Below, one piece after another: positions 33,859-51,281 of a stretch of 59,573 nt of DNA (positions are counted from its first letter, which is position 1; each line of letters starts with the position of its first letter). Below the pieces are notes generated by a model, which had not been told where the DNA came from, made no database searches, and saw only the letters and a program-made list of their open reading frames with translations. The DNA comes from a virus (lineage: Duplodnaviria > Caudoviricetes): the IMG/VR virus record IMGVR_UViG_3300028585_000026, positions 1 through 59,573 of that record. The stretch is one strand, 5' to 3'. A program made the position numbers and the translations under genes.

Positions 33859-35088
33859 ATGGCAGACAAAGACGCCGTTCAAGAAGTAATGGAAGCGTTC
33901 ACCGAGTTCAAGAAAACGAACGACGCGAACCAATCGAAACGCAGCTCGGACCTGGACGCGAAGCTCGACAAAATCAACGCAGCACTCGACAAGCACGAAG
34001 GGGCGAACCAGCAACTGATGCTGATCGAAAAGCAGAACAAAGCGATGCAGGACCAGCTGGACGCGATCGAAAAAATCGCAAACCGTGCAGGCCTGGGCGG
34101 CGCCGCCGATCCGCAGGCAAAAGCTGCGCAAGAATATATGGACGCGTTCGACCGCTCCATGCGCCGTGCCGCCGGCGACCGCGACCCGGCCGACATGGTT
34201 CTGCTGCGTGAGCGCTCCGCTGCACTGGTAAAGAGCGACGACGCCAGCGCTGGATATCTGCTGGCCCCGCCGGAAATGCAGAAAGAAATCATCAAGAACG
34301 TGATCGAGCTGACGCCGATTCGCGCTCTGGCCACCGTGCGCACGATCGGCGTCGGGAGCCTGAAGATGCCGAAGAAGACCGGCAACGGCGCTGCTTCGCG
34401 CGTCGGCGAGACCGCCAAGCGCACCAACACCGGCGATCCAGAATACGGCATGCTGGAGTTCTTCGCTCCAGAAATGTTCGCCCGTATCGAAGTGTCGCAG
34501 CAGATGCTGGAAGACTCCGATTACGACCTGTTCGCCGAACTGCGCGAAGACGCGTCGGAGCAGTTTGCGGTGCGCGAAGGCCAGGAATCGATCAGCGGCA
34601 CCGGCGGTTCGGCGCAGATGGAAGGCATCCTGACCAATACCGGCATCGGCTTCACGCTGAGCGGCGATGCAGCCAAGCTCACGGCCGACGGCCTGATCTC
34701 GCTGTTCCATGACCTGAAAACGGCGCATGCCCGTAATGCGATCTGGGGCCTGAACCGCAATACCCTCGGCCAGGTTCGCAAGCTGAAGGACACCAGCAAC
34801 CAGTACCTGTGGGCACCTGGCATCGCGAACGGTGCGCCGAACACCATTCTCGGTTCGTCGTATGCCGAAATGGCAGACATGCCGAACGTCGCTGCAAACG
34901 CATTCCCGATCGTCTTCGCTGACTTCAAAAAGCTGTACGTCATCGTCGACCGCGTGAATGTGTCTCTGCAGGCCGACTACACCACTGGCGCCGACGACGG
35001 CCTGGTCGTGTTCCGTGCTCGCCGCCGCGTCGGTGGCGGCGTGCGCCAGGCGGAAGCCGGCCGCAAGCTGAAGATCGCAGCAGCTTAA
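33859..35088 (+). CDS. HK97-fold major capsid protein
   Basis: Coiled-coil delta domain, AGYLLAP, VSQQMLED, RVGGGV. Confidence 0.95.
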   Translation: MADKDAVQEVMEAFTEFKKTNDANQSKRSSDLDAKLDKINAALDKHEGANQQLMLIEKQNKAMQDQLDAIEKIANRAGLGGAADPQAKAAQEYMDAFDRSMRRAAGDRDPADMVLLRERSAALVKSDDASAGYLLAPPEMQKEIIKNVIELTPIRALATVRTIGVGSLKMPKKTGNGAASRVGETAKRTNTGDPEYGMLEFFAPEMFARIEVSQQMLEDSDYDLFAELREDASEQFAVREGQESISGTGGSAQMEGILTNTGIGFTLSGDAAKLTADGLISLFHDLKTAHARNAIWGLNRNTLGQVRKLKDTSNQYLWAPGIANGAPNTILGSSYAEMADMPNVAANAFPIVFADFKKLYVIVDRVNVSLQADYTTGADDGLVVFRARRRVGGGVRQAEAGRKLKIAAA

Positions 35089-39485: not shown

Positions 39486-39787
39486 TGAACGATCGAGTGC
39501 AGATCCTGAAGCGCGTCGCCGGCCGCGACAGCGCTGGCCAGCCCACCGAAAGCTGGTCGGCGCTCCGGTCAACCTGGGCGAACGTCAAATTCCAGTCCGG
39601 CGCCGGCGCCATCCGTGCGAATGCGGACCTCTCGATCGTGAAGTGCTCGATCAGGATCCGGGTTTGCCGCGACATCGATGCCTCAATGCGCGCGCGCTAC
39701 AAGGGCATCGATTACGACATCGAGGCGGTGCTGCCAGATTCGGACGATCGGGACTTCATGTTTCTGGTCTGCGAGAGCGTGAAATGA
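39482..39787 (+). CDS. Head closure / head-tail adaptor
   Basis: DSAGQPTESW, WANV, YDIEAV. Confidence 0.85.
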   Translation: MMNDRVQILKRVAGRDSAGQPTESWSALRSTWANVKFQSGAGAIRANADLSIVKCSIRIRVCRDIDASMRARYKGIDYDIEAVLPDSDDRDFMFLVCESVK

Positions 39788-40332
39788 TCGACTTTGACAT
39801 GAGTGGTTTTGAAGCCGCGATGACAGCGGCACAAAGGACGATCACTGAAGCAGTTGGCGAAGAGACGCTGCGTACGGTTGGATTCTCAGCTGCCGAAGTG
39901 TTTCGCGATGAGGCCAAACTCAACGCACTGAAGCGCGCCAAAACCTACACGATTTATAGAAACATCATTGCCAAACGGCTGATTGAAGAAGCTGACGGCG
40001 GCCGGCGGCAGGTCTATTTGGTGACTGTGCGCTCAGGCCAATTTAACGGCAGCGACGCGTTTTATTGGAAATTTGTCGCAAACGGTCACGCGAAGGTAAG
40101 GCAAAACAAGAACGTCAGCAAGAAGACTGGCCGCGTAGTGAACTGGAAGCGGCATAGAGCTCGAGAGGCGAAATACTGGGAGAAAAAAGCAGCGGAGCTG
40201 GAGAACGGCACCGCTATGGTCCCAGCGTATCCGTTTATGAGGCCAGCCTTTGAGAGTAAGAAGCAAGAGGCGGCTGATGCCATGACAAAAACCTTGGCTG
40301 AACAACTTAGCAAAAATCTGACAAAACCATGA
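39784..40332 (+). CDS. HK97 gp10-family neck/tail-completion protein
   Basis: AFYWKFV..G and PAYPFMRPAFE motifs; position between head closure and tail terminator. Confidence 0.85.
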   Translation: MIDFDMSGFEAAMTAAQRTITEAVGEETLRTVGFSAAEVFRDEAKLNALKRAKTYTIYRNIIAKRLIEEADGGRRQVYLVTVRSGQFNGSDAFYWKFVANGHAKVRQNKNVSKKTGRVVNWKRHRAREAKYWEKKAAELENGTAMVPAYPFMRPAFESKKQEAADAMTKTLAEQLSKNLTKP

Positions 40333-40679
40333 CACCCGAAGAGCACATCTACCAGGTCCTCCTGGGCCTCGCTGGCGGTCGGGTCTTCCCAGACATTGCG
40401 CCGCTCGACACCGTGAAGCCGTATGTCACGTTTCAATCCGTGGGCGGTGCCCCGACTAACTACCTGAGCGGAGATCGCCCTGATAAGCAGCATGTGCGCA
40501 TGCAGGTCAACGTCTGGGCCGAGCGCCGCATGGAGGCGTCCGAGCTCGGGATGTTGGTTGAGGACGCTATGCGCTCCGCAAATCACCTGCAGGTCGAGGT
40601 GCTGACCGGCCGCGTGGCCACATACGACGAACCGACGAACCTTCGCGGAACTATGCAGGACTTCAGCTTGTTCTGCTGA
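40329..40679 (+). CDS. Tail terminator (DUF3168-like)
   Basis: RVFPDIAP, PYVTF, RMQVNVWA. Confidence 0.85.
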   Translation: MTPEEHIYQVLLGLAGGRVFPDIAPLDTVKPYVTFQSVGGAPTNYLSGDRPDKQHVRMQVNVWAERRMEASELGMLVEDAMRSANHLQVEVLTGRVATYDEPTNLRGTMQDFSLFC

Positions 40680-40699
40680 CCTAGCAACACCCAATCCCC

Positions 40700-40732
40700 A
40701 AGCCGCTCCGATATTCCGGGCGGCTTTTCTTT
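40700..40732 (+). terminator. Intrinsic terminator-like hairpin
   Basis: AGCCGC...GCGGCT stem followed by TTTTCTTT. Confidence 0.5.
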
Positions 40733-40787
40733 GCCCAAACGGGCGCAACTGGCCCGGCGACGGGCCTTTTTCATTTGGAAGGCCCTT

Positions 40788-41420
40788 ATGCAACTGCCCA
40801 ATAATATCGCGTTCGCAATTGCGTCCGCCTTTGCCGCCGCCATCAGCATTACTGCAATCAGCAATGCTACGGAAGCGGTCGCCACCGCAACCAACACCTT
40901 CGCTGCTGGCGACTATTTCGAATACATCGGTGGCTGGAGCCAGGCTACTGGCCGCGTGTTCCGCGCGAAGGCAGCTTCGGGCACGTCGCTCACCTTCGAG
41001 GGCCTGGATACGACCGACACTTCGCTGTTCCCGGTTGGCGCCGGCACAGGCACTGTGCGCAAGGTCACGACCTGGGTGCCGGTAACCGGCGTGGTGAGCG
41101 CAGAGATCTCCGGCGGCGATGGCAAGAACGTCGAGGTGGCTCTGCTCGACTCCAACATGCCAGTCATGTTGCCGGACGGCTTCACCGCCACGTCCGTCAC
41201 TTTGACGACCGCAGACGACAAGTCGCTGCCGCACCACGCTGCGCTCAAGGCCGTTTCGGACGGCGTGAAGCTGACCTGCCTGCGCGGCTTGCTGCCTGGC
41301 GGCGGCGTGCTGCTGTATGCCGGCTACTGCTCGTTCAACGAATCGCCGAGCCTGGCGAAAGGCAGCGTCATGTCCGTCAAGTCGATCTTCTCGCTGCAGA
41401 ACAAGGTCGTCCGCTACTAA
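40788..41420 (+). CDS. Major tail tube protein
   Basis: MQLPN..., ITAISNATEAV, SFNESP; position. Confidence 0.85.
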   Translation: MQLPNNIAFAIASAFAAAISITAISNATEAVATATNTFAAGDYFEYIGGWSQATGRVFRAKAASGTSLTFEGLDTTDTSLFPVGAGTGTVRKVTTWVPVTGVVSAEISGGDGKNVEVALLDSNMPVMLPDGFTATSVTLTTADDKSLPHHAALKAVSDGVKLTCLRGLLPGGGVLLYAGYCSFNESPSLAKGSVMSVKSIFSLQNKVVRY

Positions 41421-41526
41421 ACCGCGTTGCCAGCTGGCGCCGAATGGTCGGCGCTAGCTTTTCCTGCCGCGGGGTCGCGCCTCGCGGTCTTTTTCCTGAA
41501 TCACTCCCACCTGAAAGAAAATAATC

Positions 41527-41844
41527 ATGGCAAAAGCAAAACTCTCCCTGGCCGTCGCCGCTACCTTCGCTGCAGTCGTTGCCATTCCGGTCCCGGGCGG
41601 CAAAACCGCCGATGTGGAATTCACCTTCAAGTGGATGAGCCGCGACAACTTTAAAGAATTCATCGAGAACCTGGCCGGCGCCGAAGACGTCGACGCGCTG
41701 ATGGACATCCTGGCAGGCTGGGACCTGGACGAGACCTTCAACAAGGACCAGGTCGAAAAGCTGGTGCAGCGCTACATGGGCGCCGCGCGCGCCATCCTCG
41801 ACAAGTTCATCGCCGAAGTCACCGGCGCCCGCGCAAAAAACTAA
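41527..41844 (+). CDS. Tail assembly chaperone (gpG-like)
   Basis: VEFTFK, GWDLDE; ends at slippery AAAAAAC. Confidence 0.85.
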   Translation: MAKAKLSLAVAATFAAVVAIPVPGGKTADVEFTFKWMSRDNFKEFIENLAGAEDVDALMDILAGWDLDETFNKDQVEKLVQRYMGAARAILDKFIAEVTGARAKN

Positions 41845-42158
41845 GGGCCGTCGCCTCGGCCCTTTACGAAGCAGAGCCCAGCGACGCCGATCTGGAGGTC
41901 GCGGGCCTGCGCCGTGAAGACTTGGCGGCGGATGCAGTTGAAGTCTGGCCCGAGAACCTGCGGGCCTTCGATCTTTTCTATGGGCTGCGCAAGCAGTGGC
42001 GACTCGCTCCAATGGGCGGTCCGATCGGTTTGGATTTTCTTGTCGCCTACAGCCGGATGGATCGGATGGGGCTGACGCCCGAGGAATACAACCAGTTGGA
42101 TGCGGACTTGCAGACGATGGAGGATGCAGCTCTCGAGGCGATGCGACGCAAGAACTAA
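41841..42158 (+). CDS. Tail assembly chaperone frameshift extension (gpT/DUF1799-like)
   Basis: Open -1 frame after A AAA AAC (41835-41841); VWPEN, QWR, GLD, MEDAAL. Confidence 0.8.
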   Translation, partial: LRAVASALYEAEPSDADLEVAGLRREDLAADAVEVWPENLRAFDLFYGLRKQWRLAPMGGPIGLDFLVAYSRMDRMGLTPEEYNQLDADLQTMEDAALEAMRRKN

Positions 42159-42185
42159 AGGGGGTATCGAATCGATACCCCCTTT
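42157..42185. terminator. Perfect 14-bp inverted repeat, probable bidirectional terminator
   Basis: AAAGGGGGTATCGA-A-TCGATACCCCCTTT between convergent genes. Confidence 0.65.
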
Positions 42186-42712
42186 CACGGAAGAATTTTT
42201 TTGCGCCCAGCCGTTTCACTCATTTCGAGAATCGCCTCTTGGAACTCGTTTAAGTCTAGGCCCGCTTCCGCGGCCCCAGAAAGGCTTTGCAGCTGTTCAA
42301 GGCTCTTTCGCATTTCGTCGATACGCTTCATCGACTCCTGTTGCAGCATTTGCGGAGAATGAATTGCTGAGCTTGCCTCAGACATCATTTTTTTGACCTC
42401 TGCTATGAGCTGAACTTCTGCCGGGTCAAGACGGGGGAGAAGGAGCTCCCCAAGCTGGCGAAGATGCGTGGCAACGATTGTTGACTTCAACTGCTCGGTA
42501 ATTTTCTGCGCATCCGTGAGATTCAGAAGAATACTTAAGCGTGCCACTGCAGTGGCCATCGCGGGGGCGGTGTCATCGAATGACTGTTCGAGCCGGGCGA
42601 TGAATTCTGCATTGAGCGACTTGCCGCTGCCGTCTGCAGCTTCTTGGAGTTTTGCGTGCAATGGCCTCGGAAGCCGCAATGCAGTTTTTACGTAATCGTC
42701 TTGGGTTGCCAT
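42185..42712 (-). CDS. Arc/Mnt-family ribbon-helix-helix repressor
   Basis: TALRLPRPLHAKLQEAADGSGKSLNAEFIARLEQSF. Confidence 0.85.
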   Translation of the reverse strand: MATQDDYVKTALRLPRPLHAKLQEAADGSGKSLNAEFIARLEQSFDDTAPAMATAVARLSILLNLTDAQKITEQLKSTIVATHLRQLGELLLPRLDPAEVQLIAEVKKMMSEASSAIHSPQMLQQESMKRIDEMRKSLEQLQSLSGAAEAGLDLNEFQEAILEMSETAGRKKILP

Positions 42713-42760
42713 AGCCGCAATGGTACACAGCGTGTCCCAAGTGTGCCACTAAAATAGTTC

Positions 42761-42815
42761 TTGCCTTCACTTTGGAGGCACTATACTATTGTCTACATGC
42801 CTTCAAAATGAAGGC
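42761..42815 (+). promoter_or_regulatory. Pant-like promoter with two 17-bp palindromic operators
   Basis: GCCTTCACTTTGGAGGC (42763-42779), GCCTTCAAAATGAAGGC (42799-42815); TTGCCT-N17-TACTAT. Confidence 0.7.
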
Positions 42816-42833
42816 GAAAATGGAGAGGAAATG

Positions 42834-43004
42834 ATGGCAACTCGAAAGGACATCGAGATCTGGCGCGGCCAAGTCCGCCTGCCCGGGCCTCTTGCGGAGT
42901 GGATAAAGGAGCGCGCGGATCAAAGTTATCGTTCGCTGAACGCGGAATTTGTGGAAGTAATTCGCGAGGCGAAGCATGCGGCTGAGAAACGGGAAGTCGC
43001 TTAA
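42834..43004 (+). CDS. Arc-like repressor
   Basis: QVRLPGPLAEWIKERADQSYRSLNAEFV. Confidence 0.85.
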   Translation: MATRKDIEIWRGQVRLPGPLAEWIKERADQSYRSLNAEFVEVIREAKHAAEKREVA

Positions 43005-43079
43005 CAAAAGAAAACCCCGAGCGATCTTGGCGGATGGGCTCGGGGCTTTAGTGAAACCACAGCTAAATGAGGAATCGAG

Positions 43080-43862
43080 ATGAATGCTATGACAAGCACG
43101 GCGAAATTGCAACTGGCACTGACCTTCGAAGGTCATTCAATCAAGACTATCGTGCGCGATGGTCAACTGTGGATGAGTGGCACCGAGGTCGGGGTGGCGC
43201 TCGCGTATGCCAGCCCGGACAAGGCAATTAAGCAGCTCTTTAACGCTCGCGCTGATGAGTTCACGTCAACAATGACGAAAGTCATTAAGGTCCTGACGGC
43301 GGGCGGCAAGCAAGCAGTGCGGTTTTTCAGTCTGCGCGGCGCCCACCTTCTGGCCATGTTCGCCAGGACCGACAAAGCGAAGGCGTTTCGCGTTTGGGTG
43401 CTGAACATCCTCGATAAGGAAGTGGCGCAGGTTAAGGCTGCTCCTGTCCAGAGCTATAGCTTTCCCCTGGCGAGTTGCAAGCCAGTGCCGAGGGGCGATT
43501 GCTTTGATAGCCAGGCGCAGTTCGATCTCAAGTCGCTGACCGATCCTCGCAACCCGGCGCCGGAGCTTGACTTGATCAGGCAGCTCGAGCGCGATGGCCA
43601 CGACGTCACCGGCGCGCGGGTTCGCATCCTCGCCCTGCGCGAACAGTTGGGCTATATGCTGATGGCCAATGAGCGCATGGGCGTATGGCAGGAGCGGCTG
43701 GCAGGCATGATGCGGGAGATGACTGATTACCAGCGGCCTCAAGGTGTCGGGGCGCTTTTCTCTCGAGAGCCGCAGGGGCTTTCGCGACTCTCTTTCAGTG
43801 CGCAGCTGCCTGACTACGATGGCATGAAGTTTGGCTTCCGCAAGCTGGGAGGTGCTGCGTAA
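43080..43862 (+). CDS. BRO-N domain antirepressor
   Basis: FSLRGAHLLAMFARTDKAKAFRVWVLNILD. Confidence 0.85.
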   Translation: MNAMTSTAKLQLALTFEGHSIKTIVRDGQLWMSGTEVGVALAYASPDKAIKQLFNARADEFTSTMTKVIKVLTAGGKQAVRFFSLRGAHLLAMFARTDKAKAFRVWVLNILDKEVAQVKAAPVQSYSFPLASCKPVPRGDCFDSQAQFDLKSLTDPRNPAPELDLIRQLERDGHDVTGARVRILALREQLGYMLMANERMGVWQERLAGMMREMTDYQRPQGVGALFSREPQGLSRLSFSAQLPDYDGMKFGFRKLGGAA

Positions 43863-44431
43863 TGGAGATCCTCAAGCTCAAACTGACCGGTACATCGCCG
43901 CTGATGATGCACAGCGACCGATTGGCCAACCCACTGCTGCCCGAGACGAAAGCGCACAAGTCGCTGACAGCAAAGCGCAAAAAGACTGACGAGGATCACC
44001 TCGCAATCGCACGATCCGAGTTCGTCAGCGGCCTTTACTGGAATGAGGCCGCCGGCGTGCACGTGCCGGGACAGAACTTCGATGCCACGTTCCTGGCTGG
44101 CGCCAAGCTGCAGAAACTCGGCACCGCATGGAAGCGCGGCGCGTTGGTGATGACCGACCGGGTGAAACTGCTGTACGACGGCCCGAAATCTCCAGCAGCG
44201 CTGTGGGAGGACAATCGCTTCATCGACTGCCGCGGCGTGAAGGTTGGCTCGGCAAAGGTGATGAGGTATCGGCCGGTCTTCCTGGAATGGGCAGCCGAGC
44301 TCGAGCTCGCATTCAATCCTGAAATTCTCGATGAGGGCGAGGTGCGGAAAGCGCTGGCAGACGCTGGCGCGCTGATCGGCGTCTGCGAGTACCGCCCTCG
44401 CTTCGGCCGCTTCGAGGTGGCGTATGGATGA
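43862..44431 (+). CDS. Stand-alone RAMP/Cas7-like protein (Vipr-like RNA-guided effector)
   Basis: LKLTGTSPLMMH first strand, HVPGQNF helix-start motif, C-terminal Gly-rich loop GALIGVCEYRPRFGRFEV; upstream of the pentamer arrays. Confidence 0.8.
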   Translation: MEILKLKLTGTSPLMMHSDRLANPLLPETKAHKSLTAKRKKTDEDHLAIARSEFVSGLYWNEAAGVHVPGQNFDATFLAGAKLQKLGTAWKRGALVMTDRVKLLYDGPKSPAALWEDNRFIDCRGVKVGSAKVMRYRPVFLEWAAELELAFNPEILDEGEVRKALADAGALIGVCEYRPRFGRFEVAYG

Positions 44432-44894
44432 CACGGCAGAGCCGACCCTGCTGCCGGAATGGCGTCAAGCGGTGAGGGATTTCCTCTCCGCTGGCTTCAA
44501 GGAGGGCGATATCGTGCCGCACGCCTGGCTCGAGCAGCACTTCGGCATGGCAAAGTTGGACGAGGACAAGCCGCTGCTGCCGGCTGACTGGAGCGCGAGG
44601 CAGTTCGACTGGCTGCGCAATATTGAATCGTTTCGAACCGAGCTGCTCGAACAGCATCAGGTTTTTCTCAGCAGCGTTTATGGCGAAGGCTATAGGCTGG
44701 TACCACCCAGGGAGCAGAGCGCGATCGCGCAAGAGCGGTTCGAGCGGGACGCGAAGCGCTCATATAGGAAGGCAGCGGCAACGCTGAAGAACGTGAGGCT
44801 CGGCGAGTTGACGGAGGCGGAACGAAAGGAAAACCTCGATGCCATCGCGCGCATTGCGATGTTGCGCGGAATGCACAAGACGGCAGTGGAATAG
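44424..44894 (+). CDS. Accessory wHTH-like protein of the RAMP cassette
   Basis: LSSVYGEGYRLV wing motif, helical C-terminus; overlaps the RAMP gene stop. Confidence 0.65.
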   Translation: MDDTAEPTLLPEWRQAVRDFLSAGFKEGDIVPHAWLEQHFGMAKLDEDKPLLPADWSARQFDWLRNIESFRTELLEQHQVFLSSVYGEGYRLVPPREQSAIAQERFERDAKRSYRKAAATLKNVRLGELTEAERKENLDAIARIAMLRGMHKTAVE

Positions 44895-44900
44895 AATTCC

Positions 44901-45004
44901 GCCGAGCTTCGATTCGGCAGGCTCGGCCTTGGTACGGCATGGCATGGCTTGGCGGGCTATGGGCTGACAACAGCAGCCAGCATCTTCGATGAGGGTGTTG
45001 GTTG
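44901..45004 (+). ncRNA. Guide-like RNA 1: 13 GGY-NN pentamers plus a 14-bp hairpin
   Basis: gccga gcttc gattc ggcag gctcg gcctt ggtac ggcat ggcat ggctt ggcgg gctat gggct; hairpin 44974-45004 with 4 G-U pairs. Confidence 0.8.
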
Positions 45005-45021
45005 ATGCGGTTAGCATCGCT

Positions 45022-45153
45022 AGCGAGGTACGGCAAGTCTTGGCTGGGTCCGATTCGGCTCGGCACGGCAAGCTCGGGTCAGGCTAGGTAAGGCGCGGTT
45101 TGCCGTGGTATGGGTAGCAAGCGAAAAGCTCCGAGAGGGGCTTTTCGTGTTGC
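45022..45153 (+). ncRNA. Guide-like RNA 2: 18-19 GGY-NN pentamers plus a GAGA-tetraloop hairpin
   Basis: Strict 5-nt period over 45027-45116; hairpin 45121-45148. Confidence 0.8.
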
Positions 45154-45197
45154 CCGATTGTGCTGGTGTAACATTGCCGCTCAATAAAGGAGGCGGC

Positions 45198-45557
45198 ATG
45201 GCGAAACTTGAAATACACGCGGGTGATTTCCCGAATGGTAGCCACTCGATTGGCTTCAACGTGATTACGTTGAACTGGCAGCCGGGCGACGGCCTTACCG
45301 GAAAAAGCATCGCTCTCATTGGCTACTTGACATCGGTGTCTATAGCGACAGAGGAAGAAGTTAGGCGAGTTGGCGGAACGATCGGTTGGGGTCTAGCAGG
45401 AGCTGCAATCCTCGGACCGGTTGGGCTGCTTGCGGGAGCGCTCCTGGGTGGCAAGGGGAAGGACGTTACGTTCGTTGCTCAGTTCAACGACGGCAAGAAG
45501 ATGCTTGCCACTACGGATTCGAAAACATTTACAAAAATGCAGGCGCTTGTGTTTTAG
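45198..45557 (+). CDS. Small protein with Gly-zipper hydrophobic segment
   Basis: AGGAGG RBS; GWGLAGAAILGPVGLLAGALLGG. Confidence 0.7.
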   Translation: MAKLEIHAGDFPNGSHSIGFNVITLNWQPGDGLTGKSIALIGYLTSVSIATEEEVRRVGGTIGWGLAGAAILGPVGLLAGALLGGKGKDVTFVAQFNDGKKMLATTDSKTFTKMQALVF

Positions 45558-45578
45558 TGAGCGCAGCTACCGGCAACC

Positions 45579-45603
45579 AAGCCGCCTTCGGGCGGCTTTT
45601 TTT
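45579..45603 (+). terminator. Intrinsic terminator
   Basis: GCCGCC-TTCG-GGCGGC plus T7. Confidence 0.8.
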
Positions 45604-45614
45604 ATGGGCGGAAC

Positions 45615-48600
45615 ATGAGCGAAATCGTAAACGAGGCAGTCATTAAGGTTTCGGCCGACGCCAGCGGCGTCGAGACTGGTCTTCGTGAAGTCGAGAAAGC
45701 GACCGCCAAGACAGGAAAGAATCTCGAGAACCTCGCTGCGACTGCAGGCAAGGCCAGCAAGTCCCTCGAAAACCTTGGTAGCACGCCGGGCTTGCGGACT
45801 GTCGGCGACGGCGCTGGCGCAGCAGCGGGCAAGGTCGACAGCGCGACCAAAAGCATGGCCGAAGCGATCCAGCGCGCCACCGCTACGATGAATGTTGGCG
45901 CGAAGGGTAGCGCCGCCTACTACGCGGCCTTGGCAAATACACGTGGGCTGAACGTCGCGGCGCTGCAGCCTTACCTTGATCAGTTGGATGCCGTCACCAA
46001 GAAGACGGCGCAGGCAGCCGCCGCCCAGCGTCAGCTTGACGAGGGCAATAATTTTCTCGCCGGATTGCGCTCCCAGGCGGATGGAATCGGAAAGACTGCG
46101 TCACAACTAGCCGCCCTGCGCGCCGAGCAGTTGGGTGTTGCAGATGATGCGCGCCCGCTGATCGAGCAGTTGGGAGCTGCAGAGGAGGCCGCCGGGAATG
46201 CAGGAAATTCAGTGAGTGGTTTCGCTGCTGCACTCGCCGCGGCCGGCGCCAGCGCCGGGATCGCGAGCGTGGTGCAACTCTCGGATGCATACGGCAGTTA
46301 CCTCGCCCAACTCAAGCTGGCGACAACCGGCCAAAGCGAGTTTTTGAGGGCTCAGGCATCTACGCAGCAGATTGCCGCCTCCGCCCAGTCGGACCTTGCA
46401 AGCACCGCTTCACTCTACGCGAGCATCACGAAGAGCACCCGCGATCTCGGCATTGCCCAGGCACAGGTGGCCAATATCACAGAAGTCGTAAGTCTGGCGC
46501 TGAAGGTATCGGGGGCAAGCACGCAATCAGCGTCTTCGGCGATCCTGCAGCTATCCCAAGCATTCGCGTCAGGAGTTCTGCGCGGTGAGGAATTCAACTC
46601 TGTAAATGAAGCGTCGCCGCGATTGATGGAGGCGCTAGCCGATGGGATCGGCGTGCCAGTCGGCGCACTGCGCGCAATGGCCGAACAGGGTGCGCTGACG
46701 ACCGAGGTGCTTGCAAACGGATTGCCACGAGCGCTGGAAAAGCTCCGCGAAGAGGCGAAGTCGGTTGAGACGGTCGGCGGCGCGATCACGGTCCTCAAGG
46801 ACAAAACGATGCTGCTCGTCGGTGCCACCGCGCAGTCGAGCGGAGTAGTCGCCGTGCTGTCGGGCGGGATCAGGCTGCTGAGCGATAACCTCGTACTCGC
46901 GGGCGGGGCGATGGCTACCGTTGCTGCTGTCAAACTCGGGGCATCCCTTGCGTCGGCAGCCTCCGGCGCCTACGCCAGCGTAGTAGCAAACAACGCCAGG
47001 CTAGCATCGAATCTTGCGGCCGCCCGGTCGGACGTCGCTGCCACTGCAAGTGCTGCCGCGCTCGCTAGCGCGCGTGTGACCGAATTGCGTGCTGCTGTAC
47101 TCGCTGCCGAGGGCAATGTCGCGCTGGCGATTACTACGAACGCTCTGATTCCCGCTCAGGCGAAAGCCACTACTGCGGCCGCAGCGCACGCAGCGGCGCT
47201 ATCCGCACAGGCTGCAGCTGCAGGCGCGGCATCGGTAGCGGGGCGCGCCTTCAGCGGCGTGATGGCGCTGGCCGGCGGTCCGGTGGGCGTCATCATCGGT
47301 CTGCTGGGCGTGGCTGCTACGATCTGGGGTGTATGGGCAAGCAAGGCGAAAGAGTCAAATGACAAGGTAGCGCAGTCTACCGACGAATCGACAGCTGACA
47401 TGATCAAGCGGCTGGACGAGCAAATCGCGAAACTTCGCGAGCGCAATGCTCTGGCCGCCGAGGACCCGCGAGTCAAGGCCCTGGATGGCATAAGCCAGGT
47501 CGACCGGGATGGACTTGAGCGCGCTCGGGAGGCGCTGGCGAAGAATAAAGCTGACCAACAGGCGAATCGCGACAACAGGCAATACCACCTCAATATTGAC
47601 CTGCGCACGCAGGAAATTGAACTTTCGAAAAACTATGAGGCGGCGCTGAGCAGGGTGGCTACCCTGCAAGGCGAGGTTGCGATTGCAGCAGCACGCACTC
47701 GCAATGAGCGACTCGATCAGTGGTTCGAGAAAAACGGCACCCCGGCGCAGCGTCTTGCGGCGGAACTCGCAGAACTCAAAAAGCAGTTTGGGGCCATTCC
47801 GCCAGAGATGGAAAAGCTGGTGCGCGCCAAGTATGTCGACCCGGCTGCAGCGAAAGCGATCTCGGACCAGGGAAGAGCCGCCAAGGAGTATGCCGATCTA
47901 CTCGCCCGCATCAACGGCAAGAGCCTGGGCGTCGATTCAGACTACGAAGAGAACGTAGCAAAGCTGGCCGCTGGGTTTAAAGCTGGCAAGCAGTCGCTGG
48001 CCGAGTACAACGCTACTCTCGAAAAGTACAACAGCCAACAGCCACGCGCGAAGCAGGCGGAAGAGGACCGGGCCAAGGCCCTCAAGGAAATCAGCGACTT
48101 CCAGACCGAGTATTCGAAAGGCTTGGAGGCGACGAGCACGGTCTATGCCAAGCGCCTGCAGGATGCCGAAACCGAAGCGAGCCGCAACGAGGACCTGGCG
48201 CGCACCTACGGCATGACCACGTCAGCGATCGAGCAGCTGGAGCTGGCGCGGCTGGAGGAGCAGCTGGCCCAGCGCTCGACGCTCGGCCTGACGCTGGACG
48301 AGATTGAGCACCTCGAAAAGCTGATCGACGTGAAGAGGCGCAATGCGGTGGCCGTATCCGCAATGGAGCAGGTCGACGCAGCGAAGAAGGCTGCTGAGGA
48401 ATGGAAGCGCACCTCTGCAACGATCGAGCAGTCACTGACCGATGCGCTGCTGCGCGGGTTCGAGTCCGGCAATGGCTTGGGCAAGAACTTTGTCGAGACG
48501 ATGAAGAACATGTTCAGCACGCTGGTCCTGCGTCCCGTGATCCAGGCGGTGGTGGCGCCGGCGAGCAACAGCCTGGCCGGCATGCTTGGCCAAGGCGGAT

Positions 48601-51281
48601 CGAGTGGTACGCTGGCCAACGCCGGCAGCCTGATCAATATGGGCAAGACGATCTACTCCGGGTTCACCGGCGGGATCGCGAGCACGCTGGGCGGCTGGGC
48701 GAGCTCGGCTGGCTCGATGTTTGGATCGTCGGCCGTGTCGTCGTTCGGCGCGGGCCTGTCGGCGGCGGGCGGCAACACCGGCATGGCGGCGATGTACGCG
48801 TCGGCCCAGACCTCCGGGAACTTGGCCGCTGGAGCCTCTGCCGGCATGAGCGCGGGCACCTACGCCATCCCAATTGCAGGCTGGATCGCGGCCGGAATGG
48901 CCCTGTCGAACAACCTGTACAAGCAGGGCTGGGACGCCAACAACGGCACGGTGAACTCGCTGGGCAAGGTGGTAAATGCGCCGATGTTCCTGGCAAACAA
49001 TATCCTCAAGGGTATTGGGCTGAGCGACTCTGCTGCCAACATCTTCGCCGGCATGGGACCGATCTCGAAGCTGTTCGGCCGGAAGAACCCTGAGATCGAA
49101 GAGGGCGGAGTTCGCGGCTCGATCAGTGCCGCCGGATTCGTTGGCGAGAACTACGCAAAAATCCTGGAGAAAGGGGGCTGGTTCCGCAGCGACAAGCGTT
49201 ACACCGAAACCAACCCGCTGAGCACTGACCAGCAGAGCGGCTTCTCCGACAGTACGAAAGCGCTGATGGATGCGGCGCGCGGCTTCGCTGCAACGCTGGG
49301 CATCGAAGCAAGCATCATCGACGGCTACAACAAGCAGATCACGCTGCAGCTCGGTGCCGACGAGGAAAAGAACAAGGAGGCGATCGCCAAGCTGTTCGGC
49401 AACATCGGCGATGACCTGTCGCTGCTGCTCTTGCCATCCGTGGCGTCCTTCTCGACCGCAGGCGAAAGCGTGAGCACCACGATGCAGCGACTGGTGACGG
49501 ACTACGTCGCCATCGACGAAGCATTCACCGCCATCGGGACGACCTTTGGCACGTCGGGCGCTGCATCCTTGGCGGCGCGGGAGAAGTTTCTTGCGGCGGC
49601 CGGCGGCTTGGAGTCGTTCGCAAACAACGCGGCCTTTTTCCACGAGAACTTCCTCTCCGAGGCGGAGCGCAATGCGCCGGTGTTGAGGTCGGTCACCGAG
49701 CAGATGGCGGCGCTCAGCCTGGCCAGCGTGGACACGCGTGAGGAGTTCAAGCAGGCGGTGCTCGCCCTGACTGAGAGCGGCGCGCTGGCAACCGAGGAGG
49801 GCGCTGCTCGCTACGCGGCATTGATGAAGGTGCAGGCCGGCTTCGCGCAGGTCTATCCGGCGATCGATGCTACGGCCGAAGCGGCCGCGCGCGCGGCAGA
49901 CGTTCTACAAGAGCGGAATGACCTGCAGCGGGAACTCGACCAGCTCACACTTTCGGCAGCCGAACTGTTGGCCCAACAGCGCGCCGCGCTCGACGAGAGC
50001 AACCGCGGGCTGTTTGACCAGATACAGGTGATCAAGGCCAAAACGGCGGCGGAGGAGGCGGCCACCGAGGCAGCCCAGAAGGCGAAAGATGCTGCCGCGT
50101 CGCTGATGTCTGGCGTAGACGGCGCGTTCTCGGTCCTCCAGAAGGTGGCCGACCGCCAGAAGAAGGCGCTGCAGGAAGAGATCAACGTGCGCACGCAGTC
50201 GGTCCAAAAGATCGAAGCGCTTTCCCAGTCCCTGCGCAGCACGCTGGAGGGCATGACAGTTCAAGGCCGCGAGGCTGAGGACCGCCAGGCAGCCCAAGCG
50301 CAGATCCAGGCGGCGCTGGCCATCGCGAAAGCGAGCGGCAAGCTGCCGAACGCGGACGACCTGAAAACGGCCCTGTCGGTGGTCAGCAAGGATTCGGCCA
50401 ATCTGTTCGCCACGCAGGAGGACTACCTGCGCGACTTCTACGCCACCCGGATCGGTATCGAGGATCTGGCAGGCCTGACCGACGATGCACTGTCGGTCGA
50501 GGAGCGCAGCTTGGCCAAGCTGGAGGACCAGGTAAAGCAGTACGACCTGATGCTCGAGCGCGAGCAGGAGCAGATCGACGTCCTCAAGGGCATCAGCACC
50601 ATCGGTCTTTCGATCGAGCAGGCCATCCAGGCGCTGCACGGCGCAATGCAGGCCGCCAGCGCGAACCCGGTCAACTCGGCCACGTCGGCGATTAACCAAG
50701 CCTACCAGTCCGCTCTCGGCCGTGCGCCGGATCAGGCTGGGCTCGACTACTGGAAAGACCGGGCCGCTGGCGGTATCTCGACCGGCGCCATCGTCGATTC
50801 GATCAAGGGTTCGCCTGAGGCGCAGATCCAGAAGCTGTACCAGGACGTGTTCGGCCGCCCGGCTGATGCGGCCGGGTTGAGTTATTGGGTCGACCGGCTC
50901 AGCGGTGGGATCAGCCTGGGCGCCATCCGGGGCACGCTGGAAGACAGCGACGAGGCCAAAAAGAAGCTTCGCGGCTTCGCCGTTGGCACCAACTTCATCC
51001 CGGCCGACATGCCAGCGATGGTCCACCAGGGTGAGCGGATCATTCCTGCGGCTGACAACCGCGAACTGATGCGCCGCCTGGCCAGCCCAGAGCAGGGCAG
51101 CAATGCGTTGATCGCCGAGATCCGCGCGCTCCGTGAGGAGGTTGCTCTTCTGCGCGGAGAGGCCGAAAGGGGAACGGACGCGGCTGTGCAGCTCGCCGAT
51201 CAGTTCGACAACGTAACGGACGGCGGAAACGCTTGCCGCGTCGAAGTCATCAATAAAGTGCGCACCAAGGAGACCGCATGA
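45615..51281 (+). CDS. Tape measure protein
   Basis: 1888 aa, Ala-rich; QLSQAFASGVLRGEEFNSVNE tape-measure motif. Confidence 0.95.
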   Translation: MSEIVNEAVIKVSADASGVETGLREVEKATAKTGKNLENLAATAGKASKSLENLGSTPGLRTVGDGAGAAAGKVDSATKSMAEAIQRATATMNVGAKGSAAYYAALANTRGLNVAALQPYLDQLDAVTKKTAQAAAAQRQLDEGNNFLAGLRSQADGIGKTASQLAALRAEQLGVADDARPLIEQLGAAEEAAGNAGNSVSGFAAALAAAGASAGIASVVQLSDAYGSYLAQLKLATTGQSEFLRAQASTQQIAASAQSDLASTASLYASITKSTRDLGIAQAQVANITEVVSLALKVSGASTQSASSAILQLSQAFASGVLRGEEFNSVNEASPRLMEALADGIGVPVGALRAMAEQGALTTEVLANGLPRALEKLREEAKSVETVGGAITVLKDKTMLLVGATAQSSGVVAVLSGGIRLLSDNLVLAGGAMATVAAVKLGASLASAASGAYASVVANNARLASNLAAARSDVAATASAAALASARVTELRAAVLAAEGNVALAITTNALIPAQAKATTAAAAHAAALSAQAAAAGAASVAGRAFSGVMALAGGPVGVIIGLLGVAATIWGVWASKAKESNDKVAQSTDESTADMIKRLDEQIAKLRERNALAAEDPRVKALDGISQVDRDGLERAREALAKNKADQQANRDNRQYHLNIDLRTQEIELSKNYEAALSRVATLQGEVAIAAARTRNERLDQWFEKNGTPAQRLAAELAELKKQFGAIPPEMEKLVRAKYVDPAAAKAISDQGRAAKEYADLLARINGKSLGVDSDYEENVAKLAAGFKAGKQSLAEYNATLEKYNSQQPRAKQAEEDRAKALKEISDFQTEYSKGLEATSTVYAKRLQDAETEASRNEDLARTYGMTTSAIEQLELARLEEQLAQRSTLGLTLDEIEHLEKLIDVKRRNAVAVSAMEQVDAAKKAAEEWKRTSATIEQSLTDALLRGFESGNGLGKNFVETMKNMFSTLVLRPVIQAVVAPASNSLAGMLGQGGSSGTLANAGSLINMGKTIYSGFTGGIASTLGGWASSAGSMFGSSAVSSFGAGLSAAGGNTGMAAMYASAQTSGNLAAGASAGMSAGTYAIPIAGWIAAGMALSNNLYKQGWDANNGTVNSLGKVVNAPMFLANNILKGIGLSDSAANIFAGMGPISKLFGRKNPEIEEGGVRGSISAAGFVGENYAKILEKGGWFRSDKRYTETNPLSTDQQSGFSDSTKALMDAARGFAATLGIEASIIDGYNKQITLQLGADEEKNKEAIAKLFGNIGDDLSLLLLPSVASFSTAGESVSTTMQRLVTDYVAIDEAFTAIGTTFGTSGAASLAAREKFLAAAGGLESFANNAAFFHENFLSEAERNAPVLRSVTEQMAALSLASVDTREEFKQAVLALTESGALATEEGAARYAALMKVQAGFAQVYPAIDATAEAAARAADVLQERNDLQRELDQLTLSAAELLAQQRAALDESNRGLFDQIQVIKAKTAAEEAATEAAQKAKDAAASLMSGVDGAFSVLQKVADRQKKALQEEINVRTQSVQKIEALSQSLRSTLEGMTVQGREAEDRQAAQAQIQAALAIAKASGKLPNADDLKTALSVVSKDSANLFATQEDYLRDFYATRIGIEDLAGLTDDALSVEERSLAKLEDQVKQYDLMLEREQEQIDVLKGISTIGLSIEQAIQALHGAMQAASANPVNSATSAINQAYQSALGRAPDQAGLDYWKDRAAGGISTGAIVDSIKGSPEAQIQKLYQDVFGRPADAAGLSYWVDRLSGGISLGAIRGTLEDSDEAKKKLRGFAVGTNFIPADMPAMVHQGERIIPAADNRELMRRLASPEQGSNALIAEIRALREEVALLRGEAERGTDAAVQLADQFDNVTDGGNACRVEVINKVRTKETA

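What the first reader, a model, noticed from the sequence alone, without database searches (positions are those of the whole stretch)
43862..45153. Phage-encoded RNA-guided system: lone RAMP/Cas7-like protein, wHTH partner and GGY-NN pentamer guide RNAs
Seen: a 189-aa ORF with RAMP-like hallmarks (LKLTGTSPLMMH first strand, VPGQNF, C-terminal GALIGVCEYRPRFGRFEV Gly-loop), an overlapping 156-aa ORF, then two non-coding tracts with strict 5-nt periodicity, each closed by a hairpin. I recognise no cas1/2/3/5/6 genes and no CRISPR array in the window. Established: Cas7-type RAMPs polymerise along an RNA with a fixed nucleotide step. Inference: each subunit grips one constant GGY and presents the variable NN for pairing, making a minimal programmable nucleic-acid-targeting complex. 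It matches my recollection of recently reported VIPR-type phage systems; novelty should be checked against the literature.
Basis: partly seen in the sequence, partly recalled or inferred. Interest (0 to 1): 0.97.

Follow-up and report, generated by a model that had tools for sequence, protein, structure and literature searches.

The report
Phage VIPR locus aimed at rival phages
This is a genuine member of the recently published VIPR family, a phage-borne RNA-guided DNA-silencing system, and its two guide RNAs appear to target the neck/tail-completion gene of related rival phages while sparing the phage's own copy.

Summary
VIPR was described in three bioRxiv preprints of 2026.

- **Vipr protein.** The 189-aa ORF (43862-44431) matches the solved SUSP1 Vipr protein (PDB 36pp, E 5e-45). 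It folds as a Cas7/Csm3-like RAMP (Z 10.8) and keeps the residues that read GGY in SUSP1.
- **Accessory protein.** The overlapping 156-aa ORF is a homologue of SUSP1 vap1 (28% identity, E 2e-16). Its N-terminal domain is weakly winged-helix-like.
- **Guide tracts.** Two YNNGG tracts follow, with 10 units at 44913-44962 and 18 units at 45024-45113. Their periodicity is far beyond chance (0 of 2000 shuffles) but not strict (7/10 and 14/18 units carry GG).
- **Relatives.** 76 of 80 related viral loci carry such tracts beside vipr-vap. The 3' tail is conserved, with covariation.
- **Predicted target (new here).** Under the published 1-nt-skip rule both guides match, at 80% or more, two sites 117 nt apart in the HK97-gp10-like neck/tail-completion gene of many other viral contigs. 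The phage's own allele scores 61-65%.
- **Context.** The locus sits in an Arc-Arc-antirepressor cassette inserted between the tail chaperone and tape-measure genes.

Verdict: new member of a known kind, of moderate interest.

The parts
42185..42712 (-). Arc-like ribbon-helix-helix regulator (175 aa), divergent from the cassette. Candidate Mnt-like repressor of the operon.
   Evidence: Pfam Arc PF03869 E 5.9e-07; PHROG Arc-like repressor families. The Mnt-like role is inference.
42789..43004 (+). Small Arc-like regulator (71 aa), first gene of the + strand cassette.
   Evidence: Pfam Arc PF03869 E 2e-04; PHROG Arc-like DNA-binding domain.
43080..43862 (+). Bro-N-type antirepressor (260 aa). Its stop codon overlaps the vipr start codon.
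   Evidence: Pfam Bro-N E 1.2e-11; PHROG anti-repressor Ant E 4.4e-36. Sequence read.
43862..44431 (+). vipr: 189-aa RAMP protein that should polymerise on the vrRNA, one protomer per YNNGG unit.
   Evidence: PDB 36pp_D 'SUSP1 Vipr protein' E 5.2e-45 over residues 1-186. phrog_4652 E 5.7e-72. AlphaFold2 pLDDT 94.3. VIA-align Z 10.8 to Csm3 / type VII Cas7. SUSP1 H17/K33/R138/D177/W178/R179 map to H17/K33/R137/E176/Y177/R178.
44424..44894 (+). vap1-like accessory gene (156 aa): winged-helix-like N-terminal domain plus a C-terminal helical hairpin.
   Evidence: 28% identity, E 2e-16 to the SUSP1 gene next to vipr. 48% to Medea1 gp08 and 34% to LESphi2 P21_8. phrog_5926 E 2.5e-39. AlphaFold2 pLDDT 92.9. 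Weak winged-helix matches.
44913..44962 (+). vrRNA1 guide tract, 10 pentamer units. NN = TC AG CG TT AC AT AT TT GG AT.
   Evidence: Phasing. 17/20 NN match to the rival neck gene in L119, L121 and many loci. The first three units also form part of a 7-bp hairpin (44901-44926, by eye).
44963..45018 (+). vrRNA1 3' tail. H1 GCUG-ACAA-CAGC (44963-44974), H2 (44975-45003), H3 GAUGC-GGUUA-GCAUC (45004-45018). H3 may instead be the 5' handle of vrRNA2.
   Evidence: RNAalifold on 47 tails from relatives: 22 pairs, 15 with compensatory changes. Single-sequence fold z -5.3.
45024..45113 (+). vrRNA2 guide tract, 18 pentamer units. NN = GA AC AA TT TG CC TC TC AC AA CG CA TA AA GC TT GT AT.
   Evidence: Phasing. 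29-31 of 36 NN positions match the rival neck gene. Units 2-15 are perfect in L129.
45114..45150 (+). vrRNA2 tail with a terminator-like hairpin (12 bp, 45121-45148) followed by UUUUCGUG.
   Evidence: strand folding -19.1 kcal/mol, z -4.2. The same GTAG..hairpin..TTTTCGTG ending occurs in L005 and L006.
39643..40332 (+). The phage's own neck/tail-completion gene (HK97-gp10-like). It is the self homologue of the predicted target and is spared by divergence at both guide sites.
   Evidence: phrog_5 E 2.8e-13. 55% identical to the L118 target protein. vrRNA2 scores 22/36 at 40048-40100 and vrRNA1 13/20 at the homologous offset.

Best explanation
This is a type II VIPR (Viral Interference Programmable Repeat) locus carried by a temperate-looking siphovirus.

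Inferred from the SUSP1 homologue: Vipr protomers coat each vrRNA, one per YNNGG unit. They sequester GGY and present the NN dinucleotides. The filament then binds double-stranded DNA in which matching NN pairs are separated by one skipped base, and it blocks transcription. Vap1 assists.

Shown here by computation: the two guides of this phage point at two sites 117 nt apart in the neck/tail-completion gene (HK97-gp10-like, PHROG 5) of related phages and prophages. The NN pair with codon positions 1-2 and the skipped base falls on the wobble position. The phage's own allele differs at both sites.

Inferred consequence: the likely effect is a transcriptional roadblock early in the rival's tail operon, which cripples a competing phage in the same cell.
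For: Family membership
- Vipr matches PDB 36pp_D, E 5.2e-45.
- It has a RAMP fold: 54 Foldseek matches at E <= 0.001, led by Csm3/Cas7 and Cas6. VIA-align gives Z 10.8, and all 50 entries listed are CRISPR-Cas effector complexes (Csm, Cmr, type VII, Cas7-11).
- The GGY-reading residues are kept (against sections 5-6 of 10.64898/2026.04.26.720927).
- The accessory gene is a vap1 homologue.
- The tracts are non-random.

Comparative evidence
- 76 of 80 IMG/VR loci with a Vipr relative have at least one NNNGG tract beside vipr-vap, with 161 tracts on the coding strand against 5 on the other. The four misses are L018, L059 and L072, which are truncated, and L051, where degenerate tracts are visible by eye.
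- Medea1, LESphi2 and SUSP1 show the same arrangement.
- The tail structure is conserved with covariation.

Targets
- An 8-unit exact seed from vrRNA2 found 22 IMG/VR loci. 8 of them score 29-31 of 36 over the full guide.
- A reversed-pattern control seed gave 6 loci with a maximum of 25. A seed from units 11-18 gave 8 loci with a maximum of 24.
- An independent vrRNA1 seed matched 84 stretches, of which 80 were returned. At 55 of the 80 sites vrRNA2 scores at least 23/36 exactly 117 nt away. 28 sites reach at least 29/36, and 27 have both guides at 80% or more.
- On those 78 new loci (738,508 bases), which were chosen without reference to vrRNA2, vrRNA2 reaches 30/36 with 30 sites at 29 or more under a 1-nt skip. 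Under 0-, 2- or 3-nt skips the maxima are 23-24 with 0 sites. In 500 unit-order permutations the maximum is 25.
- Self-targeting check: the best self scores are 23/36 and 14/20, and the phage's own neck gene scores 22/36 and 13/20.
- Of 5 target records, 0 encode a Vipr and 3 are classed as proviruses.
Against:
- No sigma-70-like promoter was found next to the tracts.
- The guides are imperfect. 3 of 10 and 4 of 18 units lack GG. vrRNA1 looks like a shortened version of the first guide of relative L005.
- No target matches better than 31/36 or 17/20. Units 16-18 of vrRNA2 never match.
- The permutation test for vrRNA1 alone is only moderate: 8 of 1000 permutations reach 17/20 on L113-L134.
- No target was found in 401 Pseudomonas genomes with the full guide at up to 3 mismatches. 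The same held for the five named genomes that carry Vipr relatives, G001-G005. The hosts of both the phage and the rivals therefore remain unknown.
- The target contigs are homologous to one another, so their counts are not independent events.
Confidence: 0.85

Rival explanations
1. The locus is a decaying or inactive VIPR remnant. The proteins are intact, but the guides have degenerated and no longer direct useful silencing.
For: 7 of 17 degenerate-or-short features: 3 of 10 units of vrRNA1 and 4 of 18 units of vrRNA2 lack GG. vrRNA1 shares only five NN with the 10-unit first guide of L005 and appears truncated. The best targets match at 81-86%, never fully.
Against: Both ORFs are intact with conserved functional residues. 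The degenerate units 3, 6 and 10 still carry NN that match the target perfectly in L129. Two guides converge on one gene at a fixed spacing. The discovery paper notes frequent internal degeneracy in working vrRNAs (section 20) and uses 80% as its target threshold (section 27).
Confidence: 0.08
2. The complex acts on RNA rather than DNA. The guides pair with the rival's neck-gene mRNA and block translation or trigger decay.
For: Both guides of this phage are identical in sense to the template strand, so they are complementary to the mRNA, at every neck-gene site found. The closest CRISPR folds (Csm3, type VII Cas7, Cas7-11) belong to RNA-targeting complexes.
Against: For SUSP1, double-stranded DNA binding, repression from either strand and an R-loop triplex are reported (10.64898/2026.04.26.720920 Results; 10.64898/2026.04.26.720927 section 6). 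In this clade other guides (L023, L060) match the sense strand of vipr, so they are not complementary to its mRNA.
Confidence: 0.05
3. The tracts are not guides at all. They are G-rich structured spacers or terminators of a tail-module accessory operon, and the protein has some other nucleic-acid-binding role.
For: The cassette lies inside the tail gene module. No promoter-like site was found. Rfam has no family for the region.
Against: There is strong homology to a protein whose solved complexes contain exactly such RNA. The tracts recur strand-specifically in 76 of 80 relatives. Specific matches depend on the 1-nt-skip rule and vanish under other spacings and permutations.
Confidence: 0.02

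Closest known systems
Escherichia phage SUSP1 VIPR (type II; the reference system; PDB 36pp)
   Same: - Vipr is 43.6% identical over 186 residues.
- A vap1 homologue sits directly downstream.
- YNNGG vrRNAs lie in an array downstream of vap.
- The 1-nt-skip rule holds, with the skipped base on the codon wobble position.
- No self-target reaches 80%.
   Different: - SUSP1 is a lytic Ounavirinae phage. This record is a siphovirus-type genome with an immunity-like cassette.
- The SUSP1 tails form a pseudoknot. Here the tail is three hairpins, or a terminator hairpin on the last guide.
- SUSP1 guides mostly hit a satellite. These hit a neck/tail-completion gene of related phages.
- D177 to E and W178 to Y substitutions in the G-loop.
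Pseudomonas fulva prophage VIPR clade (type II)
   Same: It is a prophage-borne vipr-vap1 system in a proteobacterial host, with several vrRNAs whose targets are other prophages and other VIPR systems (section 8 and methods 27 of 10.64898/2026.04.26.720920).
   Different: - The cloned P. fulva locus is described as 'vrRNA1-3, vipr, vap1', which suggests the guides lie upstream. Here they lie downstream.
- Its targets are reported as mainly lysis-lysogeny regulators. Here the target is a structural gene.
The supplementary tables were closed and may list this very clade.
Class 1 CRISPR backbone RAMPs (Csm3/Cas7, type VII Cas7, Cas7-11)
   Same: Same fold over the whole protein: Z 9.3-10.8 with 139-155 residues aligned. 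G-loop and thumb hairpin are present. Polymerisation along a guide with periodic base flipping is reported for SUSP1 Vipr.
   Different: - The period is 5 nt with three bases sequestered, against 6 nt with one flipped.
- The guide is gapped rather than contiguous.
- There is no cas1, cas2 or CRISPR array.
- Sequence identity is only 7-13%.
Phage P22 immI region (mnt-arc-ant), recalled from general knowledge and not from a call
   Same: A divergent Arc-fold regulator, a small Arc-like gene and an antirepressor gene lie in that order inside the late region.
   Different: Here the antirepressor is Bro-N type and is followed in the same apparent operon by vipr, vap and two vrRNAs. Regulation was not tested.

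Membership tests
VIPR (type II) | A Vipr protein homologous to the reference Vipr | tested here: met
   phmmer against PDB: 36pp_D 'SUSP1 Vipr protein', E 5.2e-45, residues 1-186. tblastn finds 131 phage records, including SUSP1 at 43.6%.
VIPR (type II) | Single-RRM RAMP fold with G-loop and thumb, and the residues that read GGY | tested here: met
   AlphaFold2 pLDDT 94.3. Foldseek and VIA-align put Csm3/Cas7 on top, Z 10.8. H17, K33, R137 and R178 are identical to SUSP1; E176 and Y177 are conservative replacements of D177 and W178. H17, R137, G169, G173, R178 and G182 are invariant in 43 relatives.
VIPR (type II) | Minimal locus: vipr plus one vap gene (vap1, a predicted DNA binder), with no cas genes and no CRISPR array | tested here: met
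   vap is 28% identical, E 2e-16, to the SUSP1 gene after vipr. Winged-helix-like matches are weak: Foldseek E 0.07, VIA Z 5.5-7.3. No Cas1 or Cas2 match and no array. Other cas families were not searched individually.
VIPR (type II) | vrRNA genes: tandem YNNGG units (at least 4; 9-16 typical) in the flanking intergenic DNA, on the vipr strand | tested here: met
   10 and 18 units. 0 of 2000 shuffles reach the observed counts.
VIPR (type II) | GGY conserved and NN hypervariable among relatives, with a conserved structured 3' tail | tested here: met
   196 distinct guides of at least 9 units among the loci held, while tail helix H1 is invariant. H2 and H3 covary: 15 of 22 pairs show compensatory changes in 47 tails. 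The tail differs from the SUSP1 pseudoknot.
VIPR (type II) | Guides have at least 80% NN matches under the 1-nt-skip rule in other mobile elements, and none in the element itself | tested here: met
   vrRNA2 scores 29-31 of 36 and vrRNA1 16-17 of 20 in the neck gene of many IMG/VR contigs. Controls with other skips, permutations and reversed seeds are negative. Self maxima are 64% and 70%.
VIPR (type II) | vrRNAs are transcribed and co-purify with Vipr, and the RNP binds dsDNA and represses transcription | not testable with these tools
Bench work is needed.
CRISPR-Cas (class 1) | A CRISPR array of direct repeats and spacers, and the adaptation genes cas1 and cas2 | tested here: not met
   TRF finds only two unrelated 18-nt repeats in 59.6 kb. 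PF01867 and PF09827 give no match, while the control genomes ring.

The most novel reading that the evidence does not exclude
The Arc-Arc-antirepressor-vipr-vap-vrRNA string is one immI-like operon that works as an 'induce-and-disarm' weapon. On infection the antirepressor lifts the repression of a resident related prophage. Meanwhile VIPR sits on that prophage's neck/tail-completion gene and blocks its late tail operon. The rival is woken but cannot make infectious particles, and the incoming phage may even use its other products. An antirepressor gene directly upstream of vipr recurs in 48 of 108 related loci (Rha type). This phage has a non-homologous Bro-N type at the same place. The discovery preprint does not mention antirepressors in its main text; its supplements could not be seen.
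Probability: 0.2. Interest if true: 0.6.

Novelty: new member of a known kind. Interest (0 to 1): 0.4.

Why it matters
VIPR was described only in 2026 and has been studied mainly in one E. coli phage. This record adds an intact, compact example from a different phage type and a different Vipr subclade. Its two guides have a clear, control-tested predicted target, a structural neck gene of related prophages. It also provides a natural self versus non-self pair of alleles (61-65% against 80-86% NN match) that could be used directly to measure the mismatch tolerance of the gapped code. The recurrent linkage to antirepressor cassettes suggests how VIPR may be deployed during superinfection. None of this changes the concept, which is already published.

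Tried and rejected
- **Tandem Repeats Finder** on the tracts and on the whole window does not see them, because the units are too variable. A phase-count script was used instead.
- **Pfam** has no family for Vipr or Vap. **Rfam 15** has none for the vrRNAs.
- **Megablast** of 40000-47000 against named phages gave no match.
- **blastn** of a target-gene stretch (L151) against named phages gave no match.
- **Full 18-unit vrRNA2 pattern** with up to 3 mismatches: 0 of 5 genomes that carry Vipr relatives and 0 of 401 Pseudomonas genomes.
- **14-unit core pattern:** 0 of the same 5 genomes. The best real matches carry 5-6 mismatches, so these searches were too strict to be informative.
- **Seed from vrRNA2 units 11-18** found only chance-level hits, maximum 24/36. 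The 3' units of the guide have no known match.
- **Guides of relatives against this window:** the only notable hit is the L023 guide on this phage's own vipr (20/24). After correcting for 194 guides it is borderline. The L103 hit at 34391 was rejected as GC-rich chance.
- **Vap fold:** no Foldseek match at E <= 0.001. VIA-align scores are middling, so 'winged helix' stays a weak call.
- **Complex prediction** was not used. The published filament needs RNA, and no protein-protein claim is made here.
- **Host** was not determined. The nearest Vipr relatives in named genomes are spread over Achromobacter, Pelagibacterium, Pseudomonas, Pusillimonas and Comamonas.
- **Supplementary files** of the three preprints were closed. 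They may already list this clade, its tails or structural-gene targets.
Full report
**What is there**

The window is a whole IMG/VR virus record of 59,573 bases, estimated 98% complete. The gene order around the finding is as follows:
- 39643-40332: neck/tail-completion gene.
- 40329-40679: tail terminator.
- 40731-41420: major tail protein.
- 41527-42158: two tail-assembly chaperone ORFs.
- 42185-45557: an inserted cassette.
- 45615-51281: the 1888-aa tape-measure gene.

The cassette holds these features:
- 42185-42712 (-): a divergent Arc-like regulator.
- 42789-43004: a small Arc-like gene.
- 43080-43862: a Bro-N antirepressor.
- 43862-44431: the 189-aa ORF of the finding.
- 44424-44894: the overlapping 156-aa ORF.
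- 44895-45197: a 303-nt non-coding stretch.
- 45198-45557: a 119-aa ORF of unknown function.

**The observation**

The non-coding stretch contains two tracts in which GG recurs every five bases on the + strand. Tract 1 (44913-44962) has 10 units, 7 ending in GG. Tract 2 (45024-45113) has 18 units, 14 ending in GG, nearly all starting with a pyrimidine. None of 2000 dinucleotide-preserving shuffles of the stretch reaches the observed 8 of 10 or 14 of 18 YNNGG units. Over the whole window, the tract finder reports only these two on the + strand.

Tract 1 is followed by three hairpins and tract 2 by a terminator-like hairpin.

**The proteins**

The 189-aa protein has no Pfam family. It matches PHROG 4652 (E 5.7e-72) and PDB entry 36pp, 'SUSP1 Vipr protein' (E 5.2e-45 over residues 1-186).

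An AlphaFold2 model built on 43 relatives has pLDDT 94.3. Its best structural matches are all CRISPR RAMPs:
- Foldseek gives 54 matches at E <= 0.001, led by Csm3/Cas7 of types III and VII and by Cas6.
- VIA-align gives Z up to 10.8 over the whole chain.

The cryo-EM preprint names the residues that read GGY and the skipped base in SUSP1: H17, R138, D177, W178, R179 and K33 (sections 5-6 read). They align to H17, R137, E176, Y177, R178 and K33 here.

The 156-aa protein is 28% identical (E 2e-16) to the SUSP1 gene that follows vipr. By position and by the 1,114-bp vipr-vap1 deletion described in the third preprint, that gene is vap1. Its model (pLDDT 92.9) has an N-terminal helix-strand-helix-helix-hairpin domain. 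This domain gives weak matches to winged-helix DNA-binding domains (Foldseek E 0.07 and above; VIA Z 5.5-7.3). The C-terminus is a helical hairpin.

**Relatives**

tblastn finds Vipr relatives in 131 named phage records. The best are Pseudomonas phage Medea1 (71.8%), then LESphi2 (48.9%) and the SUSP1 group (43.6%). All three loci examined carry YNNGG tracts in the flanking intergenic DNA.

In IMG/VR, 80 related loci were fetched. Of these, 76 have at least one tract, with 161 on the vipr strand against 5 on the other. The tracts lie either just downstream of vap or just upstream of vipr. The four misses are three truncated loci and L051, whose tracts are degenerate.

The tails are conserved while the NN differ. 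An alignment of 47 internal tails gives a consensus of three helices. H1 (GCUG-N4-CAGC) is invariant, and H2 and H3 covary, with compensatory changes in 15 of 22 pairs. The last guide of an array ends in a different motif plus a terminator hairpin, shared with L005 and L006.

**What is known**

A literature search found three preprints on VIPR and a fourth that mentions it.

I read the Results and methods sections 18, 20 and 25-27 of 10.64898/2026.04.26.720920. They describe exactly this system:
- a lone RAMP (Vipr);
- an accessory vap gene;
- vrRNAs of 9-16 YNNGG repeats with a structured tail;
- recognition of dsDNA with one skipped base per unit;
- transcriptional repression;
- natural targets in competing phages, satellites and other VIPR systems;
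- seven types, with SUSP1 and a P. fulva prophage as type II.

I also read the outlines, including the abstracts, of 10.64898/2026.04.26.720927 and 10.64898/2026.10.15.759431, sections 5-6 of the former and section 8 of the latter. The family and its mechanism are thus already known.

**What the guides point at**

I applied the published rule to the window's own guides.
- An exact seed from units 6-13 of vrRNA2 found 22 IMG/VR loci.
- Over all 18 units, 8 of those loci score 29-31 of 36.
- Every such hit lies antisense in a gene encoding ..DAFYWRFVEEGHKFVP.., an HK97-gp10-like, PHROG 5 'tail completion or Neck1' protein.
- The NN pair with codon positions 1-2 and the skipped base is the wobble position, as the preprint reports for its own targets.
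- A reversed-pattern seed gave 6 loci with a maximum of 25. A seed from units 11-18 gave 8 loci with a maximum of 24.

vrRNA1, read as 10 units, has its best match at exactly +117 nt from the vrRNA2 site in 11 of those 22 loci, scoring up to 17/20. On this set alone, 8 of 1000 unit-order permutations do as well.

An independent exact seed from vrRNA1 then matched 84 stretches, of which 80 were returned.
- At 55 of the 80 sites vrRNA2 scores at least 23/36 at -117.
- At 28 sites vrRNA2 scores at least 29/36, and at 27 sites both guides reach 80% or more.
- These 78 new loci were chosen without reference to vrRNA2. On them vrRNA2 gives 30 sites at 29 or more under a 1-nt skip, and none under 0-, 2- or 3-nt skips (maxima 23-24). 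None of 500 permutations passes 25.

The phage's own neck protein is 55% identical to a target's. Its DNA scores only 22/36 and 13/20 at the two sites, and nothing in the record passes 70%. None of five target records encodes a Vipr, and three are classed as proviruses.

**How it most likely works**

Shown here:
- homology of both proteins;
- the make-up, conservation and strand of the guide genes;
- the specific predicted targets, which depend on the skip rule;
- sparing of self.

Taken from the SUSP1 work:
- one Vipr protomer per unit;
- GGY sequestered and NN presented;
- dsDNA bound as a gapped R-loop triplex;
- transcription blocked;
- Vap1 enhances the effect.

Inferred:
- The cassette is one operon. 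The stop and start codons of the antirepressor, vipr and vap overlap, and no promoter-like site was found inside it.
- A roadblock in the neck gene would be polar on the rival's downstream tail genes.

**Rivals**

A decayed locus, RNA targeting and non-guide tracts were considered. They are given low odds for the reasons listed in the Rival explanations section.

**Verdict**

This is a correct and well-read finding of an already published kind of system. It is a new member of type II VIPR, from a subclade with downstream guide arrays and three-hairpin tails. It comes with a computationally well-supported natural target and an interesting, untested link to an antirepressor cassette.

Noticed in passing
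window 42185-43862; L001 1309-2998; loci L005-L112: VIPR sits behind an immI-like module: a divergent Arc-fold regulator, a small Arc-like gene, then an antirepressor. A Rha-type antirepressor homologue lies directly upstream of vipr in 48 of 108 related loci. This window has a non-homologous Bro-N antirepressor at the same place, with 0 of 108 loci holding a homologue.
   Followed up: partly
window 43943-43977 (inside vipr): A 12-unit guide of another VIPR phage (L023 4070-4129) matches this phage's vipr codons 28-39 at 20/24. It matches the same site of many other vipr genes at 21-22/24. A guide of L060 does likewise at 23/26. These are anti-VIPR guides of the kind the preprints describe.
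   Followed up: partly
L001 (Pseudomonas phage Medea1) 212, 4972, 6265, 3082: The isolated phage Medea1 is a predicted target of guides from other VIPR loci: tail tip L gene (L050, 21/22), tail assembly I (L089, 17/20), host-specificity J (L055 and L057, 21/24) and vipr (L023, 21/24). Several guides also converge on L023 5163-5213, downstream of its VIPR locus. In this clade the guides often hit tail-module genes.
   Followed up: no
window 44913-44962 versus L005 4015-4064: vrRNA1 shares five consecutive NN (TT AC AT AT TT) with the first guide of the closest relative (Vipr 91% identical). It is shorter at the 3' end and looks like a deletion derivative. Both hit the same neck gene.
   Followed up: partly
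window 45198-45557: A 119-aa ORF lies between the vrRNA2 terminator and the tape-measure gene. It matches PHROG 12025 (unknown function) and has a glycine-rich hydrophobic stretch, so it may be a small membrane protein or moron. Homologues occur in only 2 of 108 related loci.
   Followed up: no
L025 and L026, 4080-4229: Some relatives carry uninterrupted tracts of 30 pentamer units, well beyond the 9-16 quoted in the discovery preprint.
   Followed up: no
window 44901-44926: A perfect 7-bp hairpin (GCCGAGC ... GCUCGGC) overlaps the first three units of vrRNA1, and these units still match the target. It was seen by eye only. It may be a 5' processing element or a coincidence.
   Followed up: no
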